Source: Sulfolobus acidocaldarius DSM 639
GTDB taxonomy: Archaea > Thermoproteota > Thermoprotei_A > Sulfolobales > Sulfolobaceae
Assembly: GCF_000012285.1 (NCBI RefSeq)
Contig: NC_007181.1
Span: 420,001 to 452,000, forward strand
Length of the DNA stretch: 32,000 nt
Reading direction: 5' to 3'
The position numbers and the translations under genes are program-made. This document shows, piece by piece, positions 6,819-17,755 of this stretch (within the stretch, counting starts at the first letter, position 1; each line of letters opens with the position of its first letter). The notes under the pieces were generated by a model, which was not told the DNA's origin, did no database searches, and saw nothing but the letters and a program-made list of their open reading frames with translations.

Positions 6819-7622
6819 CTAAGGAAAATTCTGCTTAACCCACTCGGCGTACTTCTTATAGTGTTCTCTCGCTATACCGAATAGCGAGACGTAGTGTCGA
6901 GTCAACACACGCGTAGGTTTTCTACCCTGAATGAAGTCAATAACATCAAAGGGTATGCCTAATGTCGCCATTTGCGTTGATACGAACTTGCGGAAGTACT
7001 TCGGGGGTATTAGGCCTAACTGTTTTACGTATTTATCTACATAAGGCTTCTTTAGCTCCATCCTCATGATTGGCATCACGTGGAAGAGGTAGAATGAGCC
7101 CTTACTCCCTCTAGTCCAATTAAGCTCATAGTAACAGATACCCTCACATACATCCTTAGTGGCGTCATACTCGTTCATCACTCGTAAAACTTCTGCCTCC
7201 CTCAGCCCCGATTCCAAAAGTAAGCGGAAGAAGAGTGAGAGCTTCGCGTTACTGGATACTTTAGCTAATGTATCCTTAATTTGCTCAACTGAGGGGATTC
7301 TCAAATCGGCCCCCGTCTTCTTCACCTTCAGCCCCTCTGGCGGTTCCCGGCCTAGGACTAGCCTGTAGAAGTTGCGCCACGCCTTTACGCAGTTATTCGA
7401 TTCCTTACTCCCTCGCTTAATGCAACTAATATACCTCTTAATTGTATCTTCAGTTAATCCTTTTCTCTTTAGTTCTAATTGAAATTGTATCAGTTTAGAA
7501 TCAGAAAATTCAGAGTTGTTAGAAGACGTAGAATTAAGGTCACTTATTCTAACTCCATTCAATTCTAGACTTGATTCTAGGCTTGGGGGCGTGGGGGGTA
7601 TCCCCCACTGCGGGCCTGTCAA
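6819..7622 (-). CDS. int: SSV-type tyrosine integrase, C-terminal (catalytic) fragment Int(C) created by integration
   Basis: The C-terminus ...[19 protein letters not shown]...[56 protein letters not shown] matches the SSV1 integrase C-terminus as I remember it (YYPLSWTRGYKGVFYVFH...[37 protein letters not shown]). The annotated N-terminus runs into tRNA-like sequence, and the SSV-type N-terminal region is absent. Confidence 0.85.
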   Translation of the reverse strand: [267 protein letters not shown]

Positions 7623-7731: not shown

Positions 7732-7863
7732 CTATTCGCTTTGAGGCAAAAAATCATTAACCTCGGATTTACTCCAGCATCTAGACCAACAACATGCCCA
7801 GTAAGCTATCTCAATTCTTCCTAAACTTTCCTTAGCCTTCTTATTATATTTCAACAGCTTCAA
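7732..7863 (-). CDS. Cys/Trp-rich small peptide P4 (43 aa from a TTG start), paralog of P3 (17630-17755)
   Basis: My translation: (L/M)KLLKYNKKAKESLGRIEIAYWACCWSRCWSKSEVNDFLPQSE*. It aligns with P3 (L/M)RVLKSNKKTKRSSERIEIACWAGCWFSCW... with many third-position-only differences (RIEIA = aga att gag ata gct versus agg ata gaa ata gcc). The position relative to an ABC-ATPase 3' end is identical. Confidence 0.45.
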   Translation of the reverse strand: MKLLKYNKKAKESLGRIEIAYWACCWSRCWSKSEVNDFLPQSE

Positions 7864-8105
7864 ATAAGCTTCCCTCTATCATCGTATAGACTTTCGGATT
7901 AGTAAAAGCTTCTATAAGCTTCTTATCACGGCTTACTGTATAATTTATCATATCTTCCCTAGTCTCAATCATCATTATTAGTAATTACATTAGTGTTTTT
8001 CAACAGTTTTCCTGTAATTAACTACCGCTTTGTAAGGTGTGGGCATTACCCATATGCATCATCTGGGTTTAGCATAACGAACTTCTTGCTGCCGAATCAT
8101 TTCTG
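7844..8105 (-). pseudogene. Decayed 3' portion of an ABC-transporter ATPase, paralog of 17017-17649
   Basis: The terminal frame reads MMIETREDMINYTVSRDKKLIEAFTNPKVYTMIEGSLFEAVEI*, versus the intact ATPase ...GIIVTHDKDLVKVFSGTPVYTMIEGELFEGIKV*. Upstream pieces sit in other frames (FGSKKFVMLNPDDAYG* ~ FAKPRVCTLDEPLENVD; PYKAVVNYRKTVEKH* ~ PQKREKVIRVIRERVKEG). The N-terminal two-thirds is missing. Confidence 0.6.
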
Positions 8106-11630: not shown

Positions 11631-11930
11631 TTACTGAGATTTTCCTAGTAGTTTCAATATTTCTCTAGCTACTTTTTCTCCCTCCTCCGTAATTACTACT
11701 CTCATTCTTTTTCCACTAGGTGTAGGCATGTAGCTAATTTTCAAGTAGCCAGATTTATGCATAGCCTTCAAATGTTGATATAGCTCAGCCTTGTTAAGTC
11801 TAGTTGATTCTATTAAATCCTTAAACCACGCAGACTTAACGTAATACAATCCAAGTAGAATGCCTAGCCTGACAGAGACGTTAAGAGCCTTGTTGGACTT
11901 TATAAGATCTACCAACTTATCGAGCTCCAT
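11631..11930 (-). CDS. Winged-helix (ArsR/MarR-like) transcriptional regulator, last gene of the RiPP operon
   Basis: 99 aa. An HTH-like segment FKDLIESTRLNKAELYQHLKAMHKSGYL is followed by a wing (PTPSGKRMRVVITEEG). It starts 10 nt after the upstream gene's stop. Confidence 0.7.
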   Translation of the reverse strand: MELDKLVDLIKSNKALNVSVRLGILLGLYYVKSAWFKDLIESTRLNKAELYQHLKAMHKSGYLKISYMPTPSGKRMRVVITEEGEKVAREILKLLGKSQ

Positions 11931-11940
11931 TTAAAGCACC

Positions 11941-12504
11941 TTACTCTTTTATAAGTAAATTATAACATAGTGATACAATCGCCATTCCAAGAGCAGACAA
12001 AGGCATATAGGGTACTAATGCTAAGAGTACTCCTTCGACAAGGTACGAGACGGGCAGAAGCGTGTCTTTTCTCCTTATAGTCTTTAAGATAAACCATAGA
12101 TTAACTGACATAAACACTAAGTATGTCGCTACTAAAAAGAATGTTAAATATGACAGGATAGTAAAGTGCAACGATAGGTAAAATAGTAACAGTAAGACAG
12201 CATATCCGGCCAAGAGGAAAGTTCTAATAAAGATGCGGTCTCTAGCAGACCAAAAGATTTTATCGCTAATGTATGCCTGCCTTAACATTCTATAGGATAA
12301 TGCCAAATAGATACCAGAGAAAAGCAAAAGTAATGTATTTAACAGTAATAGAGGTTCAGTCTTAACTATACTGTATACTATAAAGCCTGATAGGCTAGAT
12401 ATTCCTATAAAATTCAATATTCGTTTACTAGACATATATAAATAATAATAGACAATATTTCTTGCAATATTCAATGATTCCTCTACGTCTATTTCCTTTC
12501 TCAT
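11941..12504 (-). CDS. Polytopic membrane protein (about 5 TM), candidate immunity/export accessory
   Basis: 187-aa hydrophobic ORF. It has an ATGA-type 4-nt overlap with the dehydrogenase gene, implying co-translation. Confidence 0.7.
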   Translation of the reverse strand: MRKEIDVEESLNIARNIVYYYLYMSSKRILNFIGISSLSGFIVYSIVKTEPLLLLNTLLLLFSGIYLALSYRMLRQAYISDKIFWSARDRIFIRTFLLAGYAVLLLLFYLSLHFTILSYLTFFLVATYLVFMSVNLWFILKTIRRKDTLLPVSYLVEGVLLALVPYMPLSALGMAIVSLCYNLLIKE

Positions 12505-13202
12505 TCCTCTCCCACTACCAACATTCCTATAACTACCTCTCCTTTTTCCATTCCTACTCCTATCAGTTTATTAAAGAAATCGTCATTAAAACCTCCAATC
12601 GCAGATATTCCCAAACCTAGTGCAGTAGCTACTAGGTAAAAGTTTTCTATCACTATTCCGGTGTCAATCAGGGAAAATCTGGCTCCTCTATTTCCATATT
12701 TAACCATCGGCTTCCAGTATAAGCTAGTAAGGAGTATTATTAGCGGAACAAAGGTTATGTCAGGCAGTGAGTTCTTTATAGCTTGTAGCATTAGCTCTTC
12801 ATCCAAGTCATTGCTGAGGACGTCTAGGGATCCTTCCACAGGGTCATAGTGATATACACCTTTCTCTAAGTCTGTGTAGAGCGAGATCAAGTACACCTCA
12901 GTTTCTGCCAGATTGCCAGCAGATGGGAACATTCTAAACTGAATTCCGTTTTCTATTTCTTTCACCCCTACAGAATACCATAGTAAGCTGGATATCTTGT
13001 TGAGGTTTATCCTCTCCCTCCTAAATGCCCTACTAGAGTGTCTTCTCTTCATTACCTCTTGGAAACTAACATTGATTTCTATGGGAGTTGGAAGAGGTAT
13101 CTTTTTGACGTTGCCGTATTTCTTCGGTAACGAGTTAGGGAGTAAAGTAAAATTGAATATTTGAGTATCTAGATAAAACCTCTCAAAAGGATTCAAATTC
13201 AC
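12501..13202 (-). CDS. SagB-type FMN-dependent dehydrogenase (azoline oxidase, nitroreductase superfamily)
   Basis: 233 aa. Motifs RRHSSRAF, FPSAGNLAETEVYL and KYGNRGARFSLIDTG (Lys-Tyr motif), plus C-terminal GISAIGGFNDDFF. Sits directly downstream of the YcaO gene. Confidence 0.8.
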   Translation of the reverse strand: MNLNPFERFYLDTQIFNFTLLPNSLPKKYGNVKKIPLPTPIEINVSFQEVMKRRHSSRAFRRERINLNKISSLLWYSVGVKEIENGIQFRMFPSAGNLAETEVYLISLYTDLEKGVYHYDPVEGSLDVLSNDLDEELMLQAIKNSLPDITFVPLIILLTSLYWKPMVKYGNRGARFSLIDTGIVIENFYLVATALGLGISAIGGFNDDFFNKLIGVGMEKGEVVIGMLVVGEE

Positions 13203-13207
13203 ACCAC

Positions 13208-14521
13208 CTACGGAAATGGTACAGGCTCTTCCACAAAGAGTTCTACATTGCTTAGGTTGAACTCTTTCCTGATTGTATAATATCTTTTGTGACCTAAGAA
13301 GGGCAGATTAGGGATATGTGCTGGAGTGAGGTCGGGTACTATGACTCTAACTAGCTTACCCTCCCCTAAGTACTTCTCGATATCAAAATCCTTATAAATT
13401 ATATAGTAGTTTTTTCCTAGAATAATATCAATTAGACTTTTATAGGAAAGATTTTCTTCTCTCTCTAGTTCCTCATAAGTAATGGACTGTAGGCTTCTTA
13501 GGTACTCTACTAAGAAGTTTGTCTTGACAAAGCTGTAATAAAGAGGAACTAGACCAAAATCAGTTAAGTAGTCTGGTTTAAGGTTTCTCGCCATCTTAAT
13601 CTCCTCATCTGTTATCTTGCTAAATGATGATATAGACTGGTATACCTCAAATACTGCCTTTCTTATAGCCTCCTCTAGCGTTATGTCAGCCCCTGCGCCG
13701 GCTACGTAAAGGTCGTTAATGAAACCTAGGCAGCCGACCACGAATAAACCTTTGAACTCGCCCGGAAAAGAAAGGCAAGTTATGTTCCTATCTTCTAGCA
13801 CCTTTAACTTTCGCCTTATCCTCTCGGGCAATCTTATCCTCTTTGGAGGGATTCTAGATATCCAAGAAATGTTTATTGTATCCCTCTCAAGATACTCAAG
13901 TAGACCGTGGATAAAAGCGCTCTCGAAATCCTTATGAAATGCTAGACCCCCAGTCGTAGAGTAAGCTATAAGATCTTCACCAGGCCTTATCAAGTTAAGT
14001 AAATAAGTTATTTGGACGGGTATATATACGTCAGACCCTTTATAGTATTTGGCTCTTGTAAGACTGAGCATAACGTTCTCGTTATAATCTCTAAATATCA
14101 AAAGCTTCTGTAGTTGTTCTGTCGAGAAGAACTTGTAAGTTATTGGAAAGATTTCATACTTAGTCATGAGATCTCCTATTCTACCAAATATTATGCTTTC
14201 GTCGTCGAACAATGTAAAAGCCCCATAAAATCTTTCCAAGAATTCGCCTATTGCTCCTTCTAAACTCTCTTCTTCTGTGAACCCCTTACCTCCGGCTGGT
14301 ACAACATTACTTAGGTATTTTAATAGAGGTAAAACTTGAGGAGGAGTCAGCACTTCTATACTGCTCCTGATCCAACCCTGTCCTATATGAGATTCTAATA
14401 TATTATAATTTACGTAATTAAGCAATCTAGTGATAATAACGTTATCATACTTCTCAGCTACGTAACCGAAAACAGGGCCTATGAACTCGTTTATAAATTC
14501 TTCGAGGCGCACTTCGTGCAC
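13208..14521 (-). CDS. YcaO-family cyclodehydratase (TOMM 'D' protein)
   Basis: 437 aa. GKGFTEEESLEGAIGEFLERFYG matches the YcaO ATP/Mg-binding motif (GKG...S/A..E..ER). The C-terminus ...EEPVPFP* is a PxPxP motif characteristic of azoline-forming YcaOs. Confidence 0.85.
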   Translation of the reverse strand: MHEVRLEEFINEFIGPVFGYVAEKYDNVIITRLLNYVNYNILESHIGQGWIRSSIEVLTPPQVLPLLKYLSNVVPAGGKGFTEEESLEGAIGEFLERFYGAFTLFDDESIIFGRIGDLMTKYEIFPITYKFFSTEQLQKLLIFRDYNENVMLSLTRAKYYKGSDVYIPVQITYLLNLIRPGEDLIAYSTTGGLAFHKDFESAFIHGLLEYLERDTINISWISRIPPKRIRLPERIRRKLKVLEDRNITCLSFPGEFKGLFVVGCLGFINDLYVAGAGADITLEEAIRKAVFEVYQSISSFSKITDEEIKMARNLKPDYLTDFGLVPLYYSFVKTNFLVEYLRSLQSITYEELEREENLSYKSLIDIILGKNYYIIYKDFDIEKYLGEGKLVRVIVPDLTPAHIPNLPFLGHKRYYTIRKEFNLSNVELFVEEPVPFP

Positions 14522-15213
14522 CCTGGTATCTTTAGGGGTGTATTTAGGATCATCTCTCCCTCTTTCACGTCTATATAGATAAGTTTTCCGTTATAATTCC
14601 TAGAATTAAGAAGGAGTTTAATAAACCCCAACAACAGATTTTCAGCACTAACATCTAGATTTGAAGTAGTTTTATAGATAATTTCACCACCTAATTTTAC
14701 GTCCATAATTAGTTTGGAGTTCTTTAACCATACATAAATCTCATATAAGCATGGGGTCTTAGAGTCCATTACGTATACAAAGAACCTATAATAATCCATC
14801 GCATACCCTATCACTACCTTCTCAAACTTTCTACTCTTAAGTAGCGTCACAATTTCATCATTTTCGGATAATAAGTAGCTTATATTACTAGATATAACTG
14901 CTATCTTAGATTTGTCTTTGACTTCTTGAAATGATTTGATGACTCTAAAAGAGAACGGATCTAGGTTCTTAAAATTTAATGAATTTACTTTAAGGTAAAT
15001 TATTTCATCATCACTAAGGATAAGCCTTAATTCCTCCAGTTCGCCTTTTTCTTTCTCATCAATTTCTCCGCTTAAGAATTTAGCCCATTCAGCCTCTTCG
15101 AATTCAACTATCCCAGAAGCTTCTGAAAACAAAACATATTTATTACCGTCTCTAATTGTAACAAAAAACGGAGATATCTTATACGTCCCGGCTCTCTGCA
15201 TAGTCGACATCAC
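14491..15213 (-). CDS. Putative cyclodehydratase partner / precursor-recognition protein (RRE-like N-terminus, short E1-like remainder)
   Basis: 240 aa. The N-terminal FVTIRDGNKYVLFSEASGIVEFEEAEWAKFL resembles PqqD-type RiPP recognition elements. C-terminal PGCTKC. It lies between the precursor gene and ycaO, and its start overlaps the precursor stop (TGATG). The assignment is an inference. Confidence 0.5.
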   Translation of the reverse strand: MMSTMQRAGTYKISPFFVTIRDGNKYVLFSEASGIVEFEEAEWAKFLSGEIDEKEKGELEELRLILSDDEIIYLKVNSLNFKNLDPFSFRVIKSFQEVKDKSKIAVISSNISYLLSENDEIVTLLKSRKFEKVVIGYAMDYYRFFVYVMDSKTPCLYEIYVWLKNSKLIMDVKLGGEIIYKTTSNLDVSAENLLLGFIKLLLNSRNYNGKLIYIDVKEGEMILNTPLKIPGCTKCASKNL

Positions 15214-15341
15214 CCACTAACTCTACCACCACCCCCAAACCAACAACCAAACCAGCAGCCAAACCAACTAAATAACACCCTTCCTTCAGAATATGCCTGG
15301 TATATCAGGTTTGCTCTCCTCACAGTATAATAAGCTCTCAT
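15210..15341 (-). CDS. RiPP precursor peptide P1 (43 aa), not in ORF track
   Basis: Codon-by-codon translation: MRAYYTVRRANLIYQAYSEGRVLFSWFGCWFGCWFGGGGRVSG*. The core is three tandem 12-nt repeats (tggtttggctgc tggtttggttgt tggtttgggggt, 15231-15266). The stop overlaps the next gene's ATG. It is the first gene of the YcaO operon. Confidence 0.75.
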   Translation of the reverse strand: MRAYYTVRRANLIYQAYSEGRVLFSWFGCWFGCWFGGGGRVSG

Positions 15342-15459
15342 ACTACCATCCCCCGATATAAATTAGCTTAACTATACTATTAAATTGTAGATAAAGTTAA
15401 GGAGTTTTAACTATGTGATATATTTAAATTTCATTTCTTTTTGACTTATTAGACATGAC
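15342..15459. promoter_or_regulatory. Divergent A/T-rich promoter region between precursor genes P1 (minus) and P2 (plus)
   Basis: 118 nt. TATA-like TATATTTAAATTT (15419-15431) lies ~35 nt upstream of the P2 ATG. ATATAAATT (15356-15364) and TATTAAATTG (15379-15388) on the other strand lie upstream of P1. Confidence 0.4.
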
Positions 15460-15576
15460 ATGAAAGTCGAAATAGTACACAGGAAAGGAATTCTAACTAA
15501 GCAAGTCAATTCCTTAGCATGTTGGTTTGGATGCTGGTGTTGCTGTGGAATAAAAAGACCAGACAGTAATATGTAG
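15460..15576 (+). CDS. RiPP precursor-like peptide P2 (38 aa), not in ORF track
   Basis: My translation: MKVEIVHRKGILTKQVNSLACWFGCWCCCGIKRPDSNM*. It shares CWFGCW with P1 (tggtttggatgctgg versus tggtttggctgctgg) and is divergent from P1. Its 3' 63 nt overlap, antisense, the end of ORF 15514-16173. Confidence 0.5.
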   Translation: MKVEIVHRKGILTKQVNSLACWFGCWCCCGIKRPDSNM

Positions 15577-16173
15577 ACCGAACAGCACTATGGCGGTTTC
15601 ACATAAAATTTCGCTAAGAGAACCATTCTCTAGGGAGACCACAAAGTGCCAAAATATGTTTAACGAATCTCGAAAGATGTACGCTAGGATGTAGGGCACA
15701 ACAACCACAAGCGGATAGATCCCCGTTAGGAGCCAGGAATTTAGCCTATACTTAGTTAGTACAGCAGTCACTAGGTTGGAATATGAGGTCATTGACAAAG
15801 AGACGAATGCTGAGACAGCTAGAGTTGAATAGAGGTTAAGTTTGTAGTTCAAGAAATAGAAAATTATCATAGCTAGTACAATATATATTAGAGATGAGAT
15901 AATTCCTGCTAAATGTAAAATGAAAAGATATTTAGTTTTATTTAATTTACCGAACTTATTAAAGAAGATAATCCCAGTAGAATTATACATTAATACATAA
16001 CTCACCCCTGTGCTGATAATGGTTATAATTGTAAAGCAGGAGAAACCAAAGAGGTAGGATGGTATGTAAGCGTAACTTATCAGTCCAAACATGAGACCTC
16101 CTTCAATGATATTGTATAGGGCAGGCCTGCTCACGGTGAGTTGTTTAAGGAGATAAATGAAGATACTTTTCAT
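15514..16173 (-). CDS. Polytopic membrane protein (about 6 TM; ABC-2-permease-like or immunity protein)
   Basis: 219-aa strongly hydrophobic ORF upstream of P1 on the same strand. No catalytic motif recognised. Confidence 0.7.
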   Translation of the reverse strand: MKSIFIYLLKQLTVSRPALYNIIEGGLMFGLISYAYIPSYLFGFSCFTIITIISTGVSYVLMYNSTGIIFFNKFGKLNKTKYLFILHLAGIISSLIYIVLAMIIFYFLNYKLNLYSTLAVSAFVSLSMTSYSNLVTAVLTKYRLNSWLLTGIYPLVVVVPYILAYIFRDSLNIFWHFVVSLENGSLSEILCETAIVLFGLHITVWSFYSTATPASKPTC

Positions 16174-16288
16174 AGCAATTTTAGCATAATTTAAGCCTAA
16201 TAAACTAGTAGTGTGGTTAACAACTTTTAACTTTCTCGACCCCTTATAATCCTTAACGTCAGCAATTAAGTTAGGGGTAATAAATTAT

Positions 16289-17026
16289 ATGGAGCTTGAG
16301 AAGTCGATGATAGTGAAGTTCACAATATCTCCTACAGCATTAATATATATGACAGGCATGATGCTGTTAGACAGTGTAGGACTCTATTTTGCATTAAGCT
16401 CTGTAAAGAACTTGGAAGTAGGAGCAATCTGGTATTCTTCTAGCGTCTTACTGCTCTCAGCGAGCATATCAGCAGGCTTTTCAAACACTCTCATATACCA
16501 GTCCTCGTCATTAGCTTATCTGATAAGATTCAGTAAGCTAAAGTTAATGAGATATGTGATAAGCCTATTACTTGGAGTCTCTGTGTCAGTAGTACTCTTC
16601 TCCCTCCTCTTTGGAGGCATCATAGCACCACTCGTCGCTAAGGTGGCTATTGGGGTAACTCATACCTTTGTATCCCTTAGCAATATAGTTCCCTTTACCA
16701 TTTCAGCTTTGGTAGCTGGATTTTTCATAGTCTCATTAACATTTCTGGTTATAGTTATTCTACTCCTAAAAGTAGGGGCCAGAGCCTCTAATTACGTCTA
16801 CATAATCTTCCTTGCACTATTGGTACTAACCCAACTATCCCCACAGACCTCCTCATTGAACCCTATTTTCTTAGCCGAAGATGCAATAACTCACTCAGTG
16901 ATAAACCAGCACTTCAGCCCATACATCCTAGAGCTTCTGGGATTCTCTTTACTCCTGAGTTTTCTCAGTACTACATTACTCAGGAGGCTAGAGTCTCTTA
17001 GGCTAGAGGAGGTAATTTGGAAGTGA
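16289..17026 (+). CDS. ABC-transporter permease-like membrane protein
   Basis: 245 aa with about 6 TM segments. Its stop overlaps the start of the ABC ATPase gene by 10 nt. Confidence 0.7.
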   Translation: MELEKSMIVKFTISPTALIYMTGMMLLDSVGLYFALSSVKNLEVGAIWYSSSVLLLSASISAGFSNTLIYQSSSLAYLIRFSKLKLMRYVISLLLGVSVSVVLFSLLFGGIIAPLVAKVAIGVTHTFVSLSNIVPFTISALVAGFFIVSLTFLVIVILLLKVGARASNYVYIIFLALLVLTQLSPQTSSLNPIFLAEDAITHSVINQHFSPYILELLGFSLLLSFLSTTLLRRLESLRLEEVIWK

Positions 17027-17649
17027 GTATCACGATAAAGGATTTAGTAGTGTCGCTTAAGGGAACTCGAATACTGAAAGGGATAAATCTTGTAGTAGAA
17101 AATACTGTAGCCCTCTTGTATGGGACTAACGGTTCTGGGAAGACTACGTTAATTAGAGCTATATCTGGTCTTATCCCTTATAGCGGATCAATAAAGATAA
17201 ACGGCAAAGAGGTCAGGAGTGCGAAGAATCTTTTAGAGTACTCCACAAATTTACCAGAAGTTTATTTCATAGGAAACACTGTCCTTGATACTGCGAAGAT
17301 AGTAGCAGAACTAAAGGGCGGTGACTTGAGAGAATTTCTCGAGTTAGTGGAAAGATTCGGCCTGGAAAGTAAGAAAGTTATCAATAAGCCTTTTTACAAG
17401 CTATCAACAGGGGAGAGGTCTTTGGTAACATTATCCCTTGCCCTCTTCGCTAAGCCAAGAGTCTGCACACTCGACGAACCGCTAGAAAATGTAGATCCAC
17501 AAAAGCGGGAAAAGGTAATCAGAGTCATCAGGGAGAGAGTAAAGGAGGGAATAATAGTGACGCATGATAAAGACTTAGTCAAAGTGTTTAGTGGGACACC
17601 AGTATATACAATGATAGAGGGAGAGTTGTTTGAGGGTATTAAAGTCTAA
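17017..17649 (+). CDS. ABC transporter ATP-binding protein
   Basis: Walker A GTNGSGKTTL, signature LSTGERS, Walker B CTLDEPLENVD, and H-loop-like IIVTHD. Confidence 0.85.
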   Translation: MEVSITIKDLVVSLKGTRILKGINLVVENTVALLYGTNGSGKTTLIRAISGLIPYSGSIKINGKEVRSAKNLLEYSTNLPEVYFIGNTVLDTAKIVAELKGGDLREFLELVERFGLESKKVINKPFYKLSTGERSLVTLSLALFAKPRVCTLDEPLENVDPQKREKVIRVIRERVKEGIIVTHDKDLVKVFSGTPVYTMIEGELFEGIKV

Positions 17650-17755
17650 TAAGAAGACAAAGAGAAGTTCAGAGAGGATAGAAATAGCCTGCTGGGCCGG
17701 TTGTTGGTTTAGTTGCTGGACTTCACATGTACGTGATGATTGTGAAACTAAATAG
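17630..17755 (+). CDS. Cys/Trp-rich small peptide P3 (41 aa from a TTG start overlapping the ABC ATPase 3' end by 20 nt)
   Basis: My translation: (L/M)RVLKSNKKTKRSSERIEIACWAGCWFSCWTSHVRDDCETK*. The frame opens only after TAG at 17615-17617, and TTG is the only start candidate. The core DNA gcctgctgggccggttgttggttt resembles the P1 core. It is conserved with P4 at protein level. Confidence 0.55.
   Translation: MRVLKSNKKTKRSSERIEIACWAGCWFSCWTSHVRDDCETK

What the first reader, a model, noticed from the sequence alone, without database searches (positions are those of the whole stretch)
15342..15576. Second precursor-like gene (P2) divergent from P1, overlapping a membrane-protein gene in antisense
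On the plus strand, 118 nt from the P1 start, ATG 15460 opens MKVEIVHRKGILTKQVNSLACWFGCWCCCGIKRPDSNM*. It shares the CWFGCW core with P1, matching 14/15 nt (tggtttggatgctgg versus tggtttggctgctgg). There is a weakly alignable leader (IVHRKGILTKQVNS versus TVRRANLIYQAYS). The two cores therefore form an inverted repeat about 270 bp apart around a shared A/T-rich promoter region. P2 carries five Cys including CCC. Its last 63 nt are antisense to the 3' end of ORF 15514-16173, whose C-terminus ...STATPASKPTC is the antisense reading of the core. So either this stretch is dual-coding or one of the two readings is a relic.
Basis: seen in the sequence. Interest (0 to 1): 0.75.

Follow-up and report, generated by a model that had tools for sequence, protein, structure and literature searches.

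The report
Unannotated second azole-peptide precursor gene
This is a real but never-annotated small gene in Sulfolobus acidocaldarius, one of three precursor peptides of a thiazole-peptide ("thermoacidophisin") gene cluster; it is conserved in related archaea, has its own mapped transcription start, and overlaps the neighbouring membrane-protein gene only because of a rearrangement specific to this species.

Summary
The window is S. acidocaldarius DSM 639, NC_007181 420001-452000. ORF 15460-15576(+) lies 118 nt from P1 (Saci_0528). Its last 63 nt are antisense to the 3' end of Saci_0529.

P2 is not a chance ORF:
- An HMM built only from relatives' P2 peptides hits it at E 8e-11, top of 586 six-frame segments.
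- Orthologues occur in S. islandicus REY15A, Sulfurisphaera ohwakuensis, one MAG and several hot-spring metagenome contigs.
- The core CWFGCWCCC is kept, and every core nucleotide difference compared (window, L004, L032, L121) is a synonymous third position in the P2 frame.
- Published dRNA-seq lists + strand TSSs at 15451, 15455 and 15457, 3-9 nt before the ATG, with a TATA box about 26 nt upstream of the first.

In every relative with the junction intact, P2 and the membrane gene are convergent but only abut, with a 1-7 nt gap. The Saci_0529 tail TATPASKPTC is therefore a species-specific read-through of the antisense core.

The [P2-membrane] module is inverted in S. acidocaldarius, between two GTTAA-N6-TTAAC palindromes. 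A third conserved precursor, P3, sits at 17630-17755.

The cluster was already named bioinformatically, with P1 as its only listed precursor. Translation and modification of P2 are untested. Verdict: new member of a known kind, moderate interest.

The parts
15460..15576 (+). P2: unannotated 38-aa precursor peptide gene, MKVEIVHRKGILTKQVNSLACWFGCWCCCGIKRPDSNM
   Evidence: ORF listed. The exact sequence is absent from a 15-billion-protein collection. A profile of relatives' P2 peptides gives E 7.9e-11. Orthologues are shown.
15520..15546 (+). P2 core CWFGCWCCC, with five Cys as presumed thiazol(in)e sites
   Evidence: Identical in the window, L004, L032, L121 and L133. All nucleotide differences compared (window, L004, L032, L121) are synonymous third positions in the P2 frame (alignment).
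15421..15428 (+). TATA-like box TATTTAAA for P2, centred about 26 nt upstream of the first mapped TSS
   Evidence: Sequence. Spacing measured to the TSS at 15451. The same paper reports a TATA motif at about -26 for S. acidocaldarius (PMC10663502).
15451..15457 (+). Three dRNA-seq primary TSS calls at 15451, 15455 and 15457 (NC_007181 435451, 435455, 435457), 3-9 nt upstream of the P2 ATG
   Evidence: Supplementary Dataset 4 of PMC10663502. Coordinate mapping.
15396..15411 (.). Palindrome GTTAAGGAGTTTTAAC in the middle of the P1-P2 intergenic region; presumed operator
   Evidence: One of only two GTTAA-N6-TTAAC matches in 32 kb, where 0.07 are expected. The same motif sits in both divergent intergenic regions of most relatives, with one near-match (...TATAAC) in L004.
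16216..16231 (.). Second palindrome GTTAACAACTTTTAAC, in the Saci_0529-Saci_0530 intergenic region
   Evidence: The + strand TSS of Saci_0530 at 16273 lies about 49 nt from its centre, much as the P2 TSS lies about 47 nt from the centre of the first palindrome.
15514..16173 (-). Saci_0529: 219-aa membrane protein, a paralogue of the ABC-associated membrane protein Saci_0530, convergent with P2
   Evidence: Homologous at 29-36% identity to membrane proteins in the relatives. hhalign against the Saci_0530 family gives probability 91.6%, E 8e-7.
15514..15576 (.). 63-nt sense/antisense overlap of P2 (codons 19-38 plus stop) with Saci_0529 (last 20 codons plus stop)
   Evidence: In L004, L032, L129 and L133 the two genes are separated by 1-7 nt, and in the decayed L130 the two stop codons overlap by 4 nt. 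The Saci_0529 tail TATPASKPTC has no counterpart in most relatives and is hydrophilic.
15210..15341 (-). P1 (Saci_0528, Q4JBA1): the annotated 43-aa precursor, ...SWFGCWFGCWFGGGGRVSG
   Evidence: Listed as the precursor of this cluster in Cox et al. 2015. Orthologues.
14491..15213 (-). Saci_0527: C-like partner protein, with no family assignment
   Evidence: Position and overlaps with P1 and the YcaO gene. No Pfam, NCBIfam or PDB match. Conserved at 47-49% identity in relatives.
13208..14521 (-). Saci_0526: YcaO/SagD-type cyclodehydratase ending in PVPFP
   Evidence: TIGR03604 scores 273.8 bits against a cut-off of 219; PF02624 E 3e-41.
12501..13202 (-). Saci_0525: SagB-type FMN dehydrogenase
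   Evidence: TIGR03605 scores 175 bits against a cut-off of 78.
11631..11930 (-). Saci_0523: winged-helix regulator, candidate binder of the palindromes
   Evidence: PF13601 E 3e-10. A homologue is present in every related cluster.
16289..17649 (+). Saci_0530 (membrane subunit) and Saci_0531 (ABC ATPase)
17630..17755 (+). P3: third precursor-like ORF, MRVLKSNKKTKRSSERIEIACWAGCWFSCWTSHVRDDCETK, overlapping the end of the ATPase gene
   Evidence: A profile of relatives' P3 gives E 3.2e-15. Conserved in L004, L032, L129, L130, L132 and L133.

Best explanation
P2 is a genuine, independently transcribed gene for a second precursor peptide of the S. acidocaldarius thiazole/oxazole-peptide (TOMM, 'thermoacidophisin') cluster Saci_0523-0531. 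The cluster has three precursors: P1, P2 and P3.

Shown here:
- The ORF is orthologous to a small peptide family found next to the same YcaO/SagB clusters in other Sulfolobaceae.
- Its core CWFGCWCCC is under purifying selection in the P2 frame.
- A primary transcript starts 3-9 nt upstream of its ATG, downstream of a TATA box. That box lies next to a palindrome repeated in the cluster's other divergent promoter region.

Inferred:
- The near-leaderless mRNA is translated.
- The ~20-residue leader is bound by the C-like protein Saci_0527 together with the YcaO Saci_0526.
- The five Cys are cyclodehydrated to thiazolines and then oxidised to thiazoles by the SagB-type dehydrogenase Saci_0525.
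- The leader is removed by an unidentified protease.
- The product is exported, or self-protection provided, by the ABC system Saci_0529/0530/0531.
- The wHTH protein Saci_0523 controls both bidirectional promoter regions through the GTTAA-N6-TTAAC palindromes.

The antisense overlap is a by-product and not an ancestral dual-coding design. In relatives P2 and the membrane gene are convergent and abut. In S. acidocaldarius the junction was remodelled, most simply by a small deletion that removed both stop codons. Each ORF now runs on into the antisense of the other. Codons for Cys, Trp, Gly and Phe cannot give antisense stops, so the membrane ORF reads through the whole core until the complement of Leu19 (TTA). 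The constrained part of each gene lies opposite the unconstrained tail of the other. In the same lineage the whole P2-membrane module was inverted between the two palindromes, which placed P2 back to back with P1.
For: Cluster identity:
- SagD-type YcaO and SagB both score above their curated NCBIfam cut-offs.
- The cluster was classed as 'thermoacidophisin' with P1 as precursor (PMC4603692).

Orthologues:
- L004 7375-7488, L032 3841-3951, L121, S. islandicus REY15A L133 5129-5236, Sulfurisphaera ohwakuensis L129 6001-6096, MAG L130 3104-3208, and peptides P0034 and P0038.
- A profile excluding the window sequence hits P2 at E 7.9e-11.

Selection:
- Among the window, L004 and L032, the 3-4 core differences per pair are all third positions of the P2 frame.

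Expression:
- + strand TSSs at 435451, 435455 and 435457, with TATTTAAA at 15421-15428.
- Cluster genes are expressed, with baseMean 126-2559.
- Relatives keep either a TATA box about 26 nt before an ATG or a GGTGA Shine-Dalgarno before a TTG start.

By-product nature of the overlap:
- Relatives' membrane proteins mostly end ...KKFLS, at or near the window's FYS.
- The gap between the two genes is 1-7 nt in intact relatives.
- The window tail is hydrophilic.

Inversion and palindromes.

Precedent for this type of core: the predicted Thermoanaerobacter mathranii precursor of the same TOMM class has core GGWCCSCCCWCW.
Against: - There is no direct evidence of translation or of heterocycle formation for any peptide of this cluster. 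No paper in the library mentions Saci_0525-0530 in its main text.
- TSS calls are dense in that dataset, about 4 positions per kb per strand. A TSS within 10 nt of a given ATG has a chance probability of about 0.04.
- The S. acidocaldarius leader is strongly diverged: 20 of 34 aligned codons are non-synonymous against L004 or L032. Over the whole gene, substitutions are not third-position biased (19/28/32 by codon position).
- P2 is dispensable in some lineages. It is absent from Stygiolobus caldivivus, its core is shortened in S. ohwakuensis, and its stop is lost in L121.
- The 2025 atlas lists no asRNA for Saci_0529. I could not retrieve its sRNA or small-ORF coordinates.
- One TSS (15455) is the A of an out-of-frame ATG (ATGACATGA), which could compete with the P2 start.
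- The C-like protein could not be assigned to the E1-like/RRE family.
Confidence: 0.75

Rival explanations
1. P2 is a decaying relic in S. acidocaldarius. The + strand transcript starting at 15451-15457 would act mainly as a cis-antisense RNA against the 3' end of the Saci_0529 mRNA, or as transcriptional noise from a bidirectional promoter, and no functional peptide would be made.
For: - The leader is strongly diverged from relatives.
- The junction rearrangement replaced the P2 C-terminal tail.
- Several related loci are visibly decaying.
- Antisense transcription is pervasive in this organism, with 1,048 asRNAs reported.
- Saci_0529 has the lowest expression in the cluster, baseMean 126.
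Against: - The ORF is intact, with an ATG 3-9 nt from the TSS.
- The nine-residue core and the leader motif (RK...LTK..N) are retained.
- The P1 and P3 leaders and the C protein (47-49% identity) are equally diverged in this species, so leader divergence is lineage-wide and not specific to P2.
- The rest of the cluster is intact and transcribed.
Confidence: 0.15
2. P2-family peptides are not substrates of the cyclodehydratase. They would be small Cys/Trp-rich membrane, immunity or regulatory peptides that merely travel with the transporter module.
For: - P2 is always paired with the Saci_0529-like membrane gene, and in relatives it sits next to the ABC genes, not next to the C/D/B enzymes.
- L121 and L130 keep P2 and the ABC genes but lack the enzymes on the part of the contig that was recovered.
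Against: - P1, P2 and P3 align end to end, sharing leader length, a nearly invariant Lys and the CW-x-GCW core. They are therefore paralogues of the accepted precursor.
- The L121 and L130 loci are degraded: the membrane gene is truncated in one and frameshifted in the other.
- A Cys-rich core after a ~20-aa leader is the defining look of TOMM substrates.
Confidence: 0.07
3. The overlap is true, selected dual coding: both the P2 core and the Saci_0529 C-terminal tail are functional and co-constrained.
For: Both ORFs are open, and Saci_0529 must be translated through the tail to reach its stop codon.
Against: - The overlap exists only in S. acidocaldarius.
- Relatives' membrane proteins mostly end before it.
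- The synonymous P2 changes seen in relatives would all be non-synonymous in the membrane frame.
- The tail is a short hydrophilic appendix after the last hydrophobic segment.
Confidence: 0.03

Closest known systems
'Thermoacidophisin' TOMM class (Cox, Doroghazi & Mitchell 2015, BMC Genomics 16:778)
   Same: It is the same gene cluster. That paper lists the S. acidocaldarius YcaO (Q4JBA3) and P1 as its precursor, describes discrete C and D proteins, a B protein, ABC transporters and a regulator, and notes that the C proteins form their own group.
   Different: Only P1 is listed there. P2 and P3, the palindromic motif, the module inversion and the antisense overlap are not described. No product or activity is known.
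Linear azol(in)e-containing peptide precursors such as microcin B17 McbA and streptolysin S SagA (own knowledge of these families)
   Same: A short ORF with an N-terminal leader and a Gly/Cys-rich core, encoded beside a YcaO cyclodehydratase and a SagB/McbC-type dehydrogenase. Several precursor genes per cluster are common among RiPPs.
   Different: - The core is Trp-rich (CWFGCWCCC) and has no Ser or Thr.
- The host is a crenarchaeon.
- The partner 'C' protein is unclassifiable by sequence.
- No protease gene is recognisable in the cluster.
- P2 has its own promoter and is convergent with a transporter-like gene.
Predicted Thermoanaerobacter mathranii precursor of the same class, MKGGENMKIIKKIEDQKDFNASALSPGGWCCSCCCWCWVNIFN (Cox et al. 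2015, Table S2)
   Same: It has a Trp plus poly-Cys core (WCCSCCCWCW) resembling the CWCCC of P2.
   Different: It is bacterial, its leader is unrelated, and no alignment beyond composition was tested.
Convergent, 3'-overlapping gene pairs and cis-antisense transcripts in Sulfolobales (atlas of 1,048 asRNAs, PMC12817955)
   Same: The + strand transcript must run antisense into the 3' end of the Saci_0529 mRNA.
   Different: Here the antisense transcript carries a conserved coding sequence, and the ORFs themselves overlap by 63 nt.

Membership tests
TOMM / linear azol(in)e peptide precursor ('thermoacidophisin' class) | Encoded within or next to a cluster with a YcaO (D) cyclodehydratase | tested here: met
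   Saci_0526 scores 273.8 bits on TIGR03604 against a cut-off of 219, lies about 1 kb from P2, and ends in PVPFP.
TOMM / linear azol(in)e peptide precursor ('thermoacidophisin' class) | FMN-dependent SagB/McbC-type dehydrogenase (B) in the cluster | tested here: met
   Saci_0525 scores 175 bits on TIGR03605 against a cut-off of 78.
TOMM / linear azol(in)e peptide precursor ('thermoacidophisin' class) | E1-like C protein or RRE domain that binds the leader | tested here: inconclusive
   Saci_0527 is in the right position and is conserved, but it has no Pfam, NCBIfam or PDB match. The single-sequence model has pLDDT 40 and is unusable.
TOMM / linear azol(in)e peptide precursor ('thermoacidophisin' class) | Short peptide with a leader followed by a Cys/Ser/Thr-rich core | tested here: met
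   The peptide is 38 aa, with five Cys within the nine-residue core after a ~20-aa leader.
TOMM / linear azol(in)e peptide precursor ('thermoacidophisin' class) | Homology to an accepted precursor of the class (P1) | tested here: met
   - The P1, P2 and P3 families align over their full length with an invariant W-x-G-C motif and a nearly invariant Lys.
- The family profile recovers only these peptides among 1.84 billion representatives.
- Direct P1-profile to P2 similarity is weak, at E 0.7.
TOMM / linear azol(in)e peptide precursor ('thermoacidophisin' class) | Conserved in orthologous clusters under coding selection | tested here: met
   Six other loci carry P2, and the core shows only synonymous changes.
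TOMM / linear azol(in)e peptide precursor ('thermoacidophisin' class) | Transcribed | tested here: met
   dRNA-seq TSSs at 435451, 435455 and 435457 on the + strand (PMC10663502 Supplementary Dataset 4).
TOMM / linear azol(in)e peptide precursor ('thermoacidophisin' class) | Peptide is translated and its Cys are converted to thiazol(in)es | not testable with these tools
   This needs MS or in vitro reconstitution.
Selected dual-coding (antisense overlapping) gene pair | Overlap and both reading frames conserved across relatives | tested here: not met
   The overlap is unique to S. acidocaldarius. In relatives the gap is 1-7 nt, and their membrane proteins mostly end before the window's tail.

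The most novel reading that the evidence does not exclude
The two GTTAA-N6-TTAAC palindromes would be both regulator operators and the recombination points of a module inversion. That inversion put P2 under a bidirectional promoter shared with P1 and created a long sense/antisense overlap. P2 transcription would then directly attenuate the permease paralogue Saci_0529, by RNA duplex formation or by transcriptional interference. The result would be a built-in antisense coupling between precursor production and transporter/immunity dosage in an archaeal RiPP cluster.
Probability: 0.1. Interest if true: 0.6.

Novelty: new member of a known kind. Interest (0 to 1): 0.4.

Why it matters
S. acidocaldarius is a genetically tractable model archaeon, yet no thiazole/oxazole peptide from a crenarchaeon has been characterised in the literature I could search. 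The cluster appears there only in a 2015 genome survey, with a single precursor.

If the cluster in fact encodes three conserved precursor types (P1, P2, P3), of which P2 is unannotated and has its own mapped TSS, then the products to look for change: the relevant masses, knock-outs and heterologous constructs are different. The work also supplies a candidate operator for the cluster regulator.

The overlap itself is a clean worked example of how a junction rearrangement can create an apparently dual-coding stretch in which only one strand is constrained at each position. That is useful as a caution for annotation.

Tried and rejected
- **Genome contigs, YcaO peptide patterns:** found nothing, not even the source genome.
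- **Genome contigs, strict P2-core pattern:** gave six unrelated bacterial chance matches.
- **Metagenome contigs, pattern TGYTGGNTNGGNTGYTGGTGYTGY:** too permissive. After in-frame translation only L032 and L121 were relevant.
- **Membrane protein in the 5.8-billion protein set:** the search found only itself. Its homologues had to be found through neighbouring genes.
- **Logan contigs L001-L003:** 100% identical to the window, so there is no within-species polymorphism to exploit.
- **Single-sequence AlphaFold models:** Saci_0529 gave pLDDT 49 and Saci_0527 gave pLDDT 40. Both are too poor for fold searches.
- **Saci_0527 family assignment:** Pfam, NCBIfam and PDB profile searches gave nothing meaningful.
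- **Data I could not retrieve:** minus-strand TSSs for P1 and Saci_0529, and the coordinates of the atlas's sRNAs, asRNAs and 95 small ORFs. The stored supplementary files are truncated.
- **Inversion breakpoints:** local alignment of the intergenic regions mostly recovered the shared palindrome and promoter-like segments, so the breakpoints are not resolved.
- **Chance ORF:** considered and rejected.
- **Ancestral dual coding:** considered and rejected.

Full report
**1. Where we are**

The membrane ORF 15514-16173(-) is 100% identical to a Sulfolobus acidocaldarius protein. The RefSeq GFF reproduced in a 2025 atlas paper places it at NC_007181.1 435514-436173 as Saci_0529. Window coordinate plus 420000 therefore gives the genome coordinate.

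The surrounding genes form a thiazole/oxazole-modified microcin (TOMM) cluster.

| Gene | Window coordinates | Assignment | Evidence |
|---|---|---|---|
| Saci_0523 | 11631-11930(-) | winged-helix regulator | PF13601 |
| Saci_0524 | 11941-12504(-) | membrane protein | |
| Saci_0525 | 12501-13202(-) | SagB-type dehydrogenase | TIGR03605, 175 bits vs cut-off 78 |
| Saci_0526 | 13208-14521(-) | SagD-type YcaO ending PVPFP | TIGR03604, 274 bits vs cut-off 219 |
| Saci_0527 | 14491-15213(-) | C-like protein, no family match | |
| Saci_0528 = P1 | 15210-15341(-) | annotated precursor | |
| Saci_0529 | 15514-16173(-) | membrane protein | |
| Saci_0530 / Saci_0531 | 16289-17649(+) | membrane subunit and ABC ATPase | |

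Cox et al. 2015 named this class 'thermoacidophisin' and list only P1 as its precursor. No other paper in the library uses that name, and none mentions Saci_0525-0530 in its main text.

**2. The observation**

The inverted repeat between the P1 and P2 cores extends to 26 nt at 85%.

As DNA alone the repeat is only marginally significant, p about 0.04 in 300 shuffles of 15100-15700. The exact P2 peptide is absent from a collection of about 15 billion predicted proteins, so it has never been called as a gene, whereas P1 is present.

**3. Relatives**

YcaO homologues at 60-64% identity exist only in hot-spring metagenomes. Their contigs were fetched. A DNA-pattern scan added two more, and a profile search with all precursor peptides added others. 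Context look-ups gave S. islandicus REY15A, Sulfurisphaera ohwakuensis, Stygiolobus caldivivus and a MAG.

P2 orthologues:

| Locus | Source | P2 peptide |
|---|---|---|
| L004 7375-7488 | metagenome | MRVITSTNKKSIDLVRTNPIMLGCWFGCWCCCGCRIK |
| L032 3841-3951 | metagenome | (L)VIVRTNRKSKELTKINPIMLGCWFGCWCCCFYKKI |
| L133 5129-5236 | S. islandicus REY15A | (L)VIVSTNRKSKDLTEINPIMLGCWFGCWCCCKKI |
| L129 6001-6096 | S. ohwakuensis, annotated as a hypothetical protein | core shortened to GCWFGCCKKI |
| L130 3104-3208 | MAG | ...ASCWFGCWCSCGIKNS |
| L121 | metagenome | stop codon lost |
| P0034, P0038 | metagenome peptides | |

Stygiolobus has P1 and P3 but no P2.

A profile built from relatives only hits the window ORF at E 7.9e-11, the top of 586 six-frame segments. 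An exhaustive profile search of 1.84 billion representative proteins finds only seven clusters, all of them these peptides. The family is therefore small and confined to this kind of cluster.

**4. Which strand is constrained**

In the 27-nt core the window differs from L004 at 4 sites and from L032 at 3, and L004 differs from L032 at 4. Every one of these is a third codon position in the P2 frame and synonymous.

The antisense Saci_0529 frame is in codon register with P2. The same changes are therefore first positions in that frame and would change its amino acids.

Outside the core, P2 evolves fast. Against L004 or L032, 20 of 34 aligned codons are non-synonymous, and there is no third-position bias over the whole gene. 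The same is true of P1 and P3 in this species, whose C protein is only 47-49% identical to relatives.

**5. Transcription**

Supplementary Dataset 4 of Gomes-Filho et al. 2023 (dRNA-seq, TSSAR) lists + strand TSSs at 435451, 435455 and 435457. In window coordinates these are 15451, 15455 and 15457, which is 9, 5 and 3 nt upstream of the P2 ATG. Each is a purine preceded by a pyrimidine.

TATTTAAA at 15421-15428 is centred about 26 nt upstream of 15451. That is the spacing the same paper reports for S. acidocaldarius promoters.

The dataset is dense, at roughly 4 positions per kb per strand judging from the ID numbering. The coincidence probability is therefore about 0.04, which is supportive without being overwhelming.

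Relatives keep matching expression signals. L004 and L130 have a TATA box about 26 nt before an ATG. L032, L133 and L129 have a TATA box plus a GGTGA Shine-Dalgarno 6-7 nt before a TTG start.

The cluster is expressed in culture, with baseMean 2559 for Saci_0527, 1986 for Saci_0526 and 126 for Saci_0529.

**6. The overlap**

In L004, L032, L129 and L133, P2 and the Saci_0529-like gene are convergent and separated by 1-7 nt. In the decayed L130 the two stop codons share TTAA.

Six membrane proteins align at 29-36% identity. Most relatives end ...LIKKFLS, opposite the window's ...VWSFYS. The window then continues with TATPASKPTC. That tail is exactly the antisense of A-CWFGCWCCC and stops at the complement of the Leu19 codon TTA.

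The tail is hydrophilic and follows the last hydrophobic segment, residues ~188-207. A low-confidence model also leaves it as coil.

Conversely, the P2 tail RPDSNM is antisense to the end of the last membrane helix and has no counterpart in relatives, whose tails are 3-5 residues long. The simplest account, which is inference, is a small junction deletion that removed both stops. Each ORF then runs on into the other. Antisense codons of Cys, Trp, Gly and Phe cannot be stops, so the core is automatically open on the other strand.

**7. Inversion and palindromes**

In every relative the order is ABC membrane gene (-), P2 (+), membrane gene (-), P1 (+), C, D, B. In S. acidocaldarius the P2-membrane pair is flipped, so P2 is back to back with P1.

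GTTAA-N6-TTAAC occurs exactly twice in the 32-kb window, at 15396-15411 and 16216-16231, where 0.07 matches are expected. One copy sits in the centre of each divergent intergenic region, and the two flank the inverted module.

The same palindrome sits in the corresponding regions of the relatives. The mapped + strand TSSs of P2 (15451) and Saci_0530 (16273) lie 47-50 nt from the palindrome centres. I infer that the palindromes are operators of the cluster's wHTH protein. Being palindromic, they are also plausible inversion end-points. The breakpoints could not be resolved further.

**8. Other components**

The Saci_0529 family is a distant paralogue of the Saci_0530 family (hhalign probability 91.6%, E 8e-7). 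This suggests a two-subunit permease working with the ATPase Saci_0531.

A third precursor, P3, lies at 17630-17755 with a TTG start and overlaps the ATPase stop. It is conserved in all relatives.

**9. Verdict**

P2 is a real, conserved, transcribed and previously unannotated precursor gene of a known but uncharacterised TOMM class. The dual-coding appearance is a lineage-specific by-product.

Translation, leader recognition, heterocyclisation and export are inferred from the family and were not shown. This makes P2 a new member of a known kind, of moderate interest mainly because the host is a tractable model archaeon.

Noticed in passing
window 17630-17755 (+): A third precursor-like ORF, P3 (TTG start, MRVLKSNKKTKRSSERIEIACWAGCWFSCWTSHVRDDCETK), overlaps the last 20 nt of the ABC ATPase gene. 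It is conserved in L004, L032, L129, L130, L132 and L133, and a profile of relatives gives E 3.2e-15.
   Followed up: partly
window 7732-7975 (-): A relic duplicate of an ATPase 3' end plus P3. ORF 7844-7975 resembles the C-terminus of Saci_0531 (...PKVYTMIEGSLFEAVEI). ORF 7732-7863, MKLLKYNKKAKESLGRIEIAYWACCWSRCWSKSEVNDFLPQSE, is P3-like (E 3.3e-9) with a damaged core. It lies beside a 267-aa ORF at 6819-7622 that I did not analyse.
   Followed up: partly
window 15396-15411 and 16216-16231: GTTAA-N6-TTAAC occurs exactly twice in the 32 kb, where 0.07 matches are expected. Each copy sits in the centre of one of the cluster's divergent intergenic regions, and the motif is conserved there in all related clusters. 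It is a likely operator of the wHTH protein Saci_0523.
   Followed up: partly
window 15412-16215 compared with L004, L032, L129, L133: The module made of P2 and the Saci_0529-like gene is inverted in S. acidocaldarius relative to every relative examined. The inverted segment is bounded by the two palindromes.
   Followed up: partly
window 15455-15463 (+): An out-of-frame mini-ORF, ATG ACA TGA, begins exactly at one mapped TSS (15455). Its stop codon overlaps the P2 start (ATGA), so it may compete with or couple to P2 initiation.
   Followed up: no
window 15161-15170 (+): A cluster of + strand TSS calls (435161-435170) lies antisense to the 5' end of Saci_0527, and processing sites are listed at about 435180 and 435333 (+). 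The atlas lists asRNA_195, asRNA_196 and asRNA_197 against Saci_0526, Saci_0527 and Saci_0530 respectively.
   Followed up: no
window 15210-15341 (-): P1 (Saci_0528, WP_011277430) is missing from the RefSeq-based annotation used by the 2025 atlas, so neither P1 nor P2 is quantified there.
   Followed up: no
window 15514-16173 and 16289-17026: Saci_0529 and Saci_0530 are distant paralogues (hhalign probability 91.6%, E 8e-7 over 134 columns), which suggests a heteromeric permease for the ABC ATPase Saci_0531.
   Followed up: partly
L121 1146-1596; L129 9457-11039; L130 3205-3484: Several related loci are decaying. In L121 the P2 stop is lost, the membrane gene is truncated and the enzymes are absent. 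In S. ohwakuensis an IS element interrupts the YcaO gene and the P2 core is shortened. In the MAG L130 the membrane gene is frameshifted.
   Followed up: no
L133 6001-6108 (S. islandicus REY15A): Table S2 of Cox et al. 2015 gives the S. acidocaldarius P1 sequence for S. islandicus REY15A (F0NHA0). The REY15A genome actually encodes MQIDYTYRKAIEISRDNKVVFSWIGCWIGCWLGKK next to its cluster.
   Followed up: no
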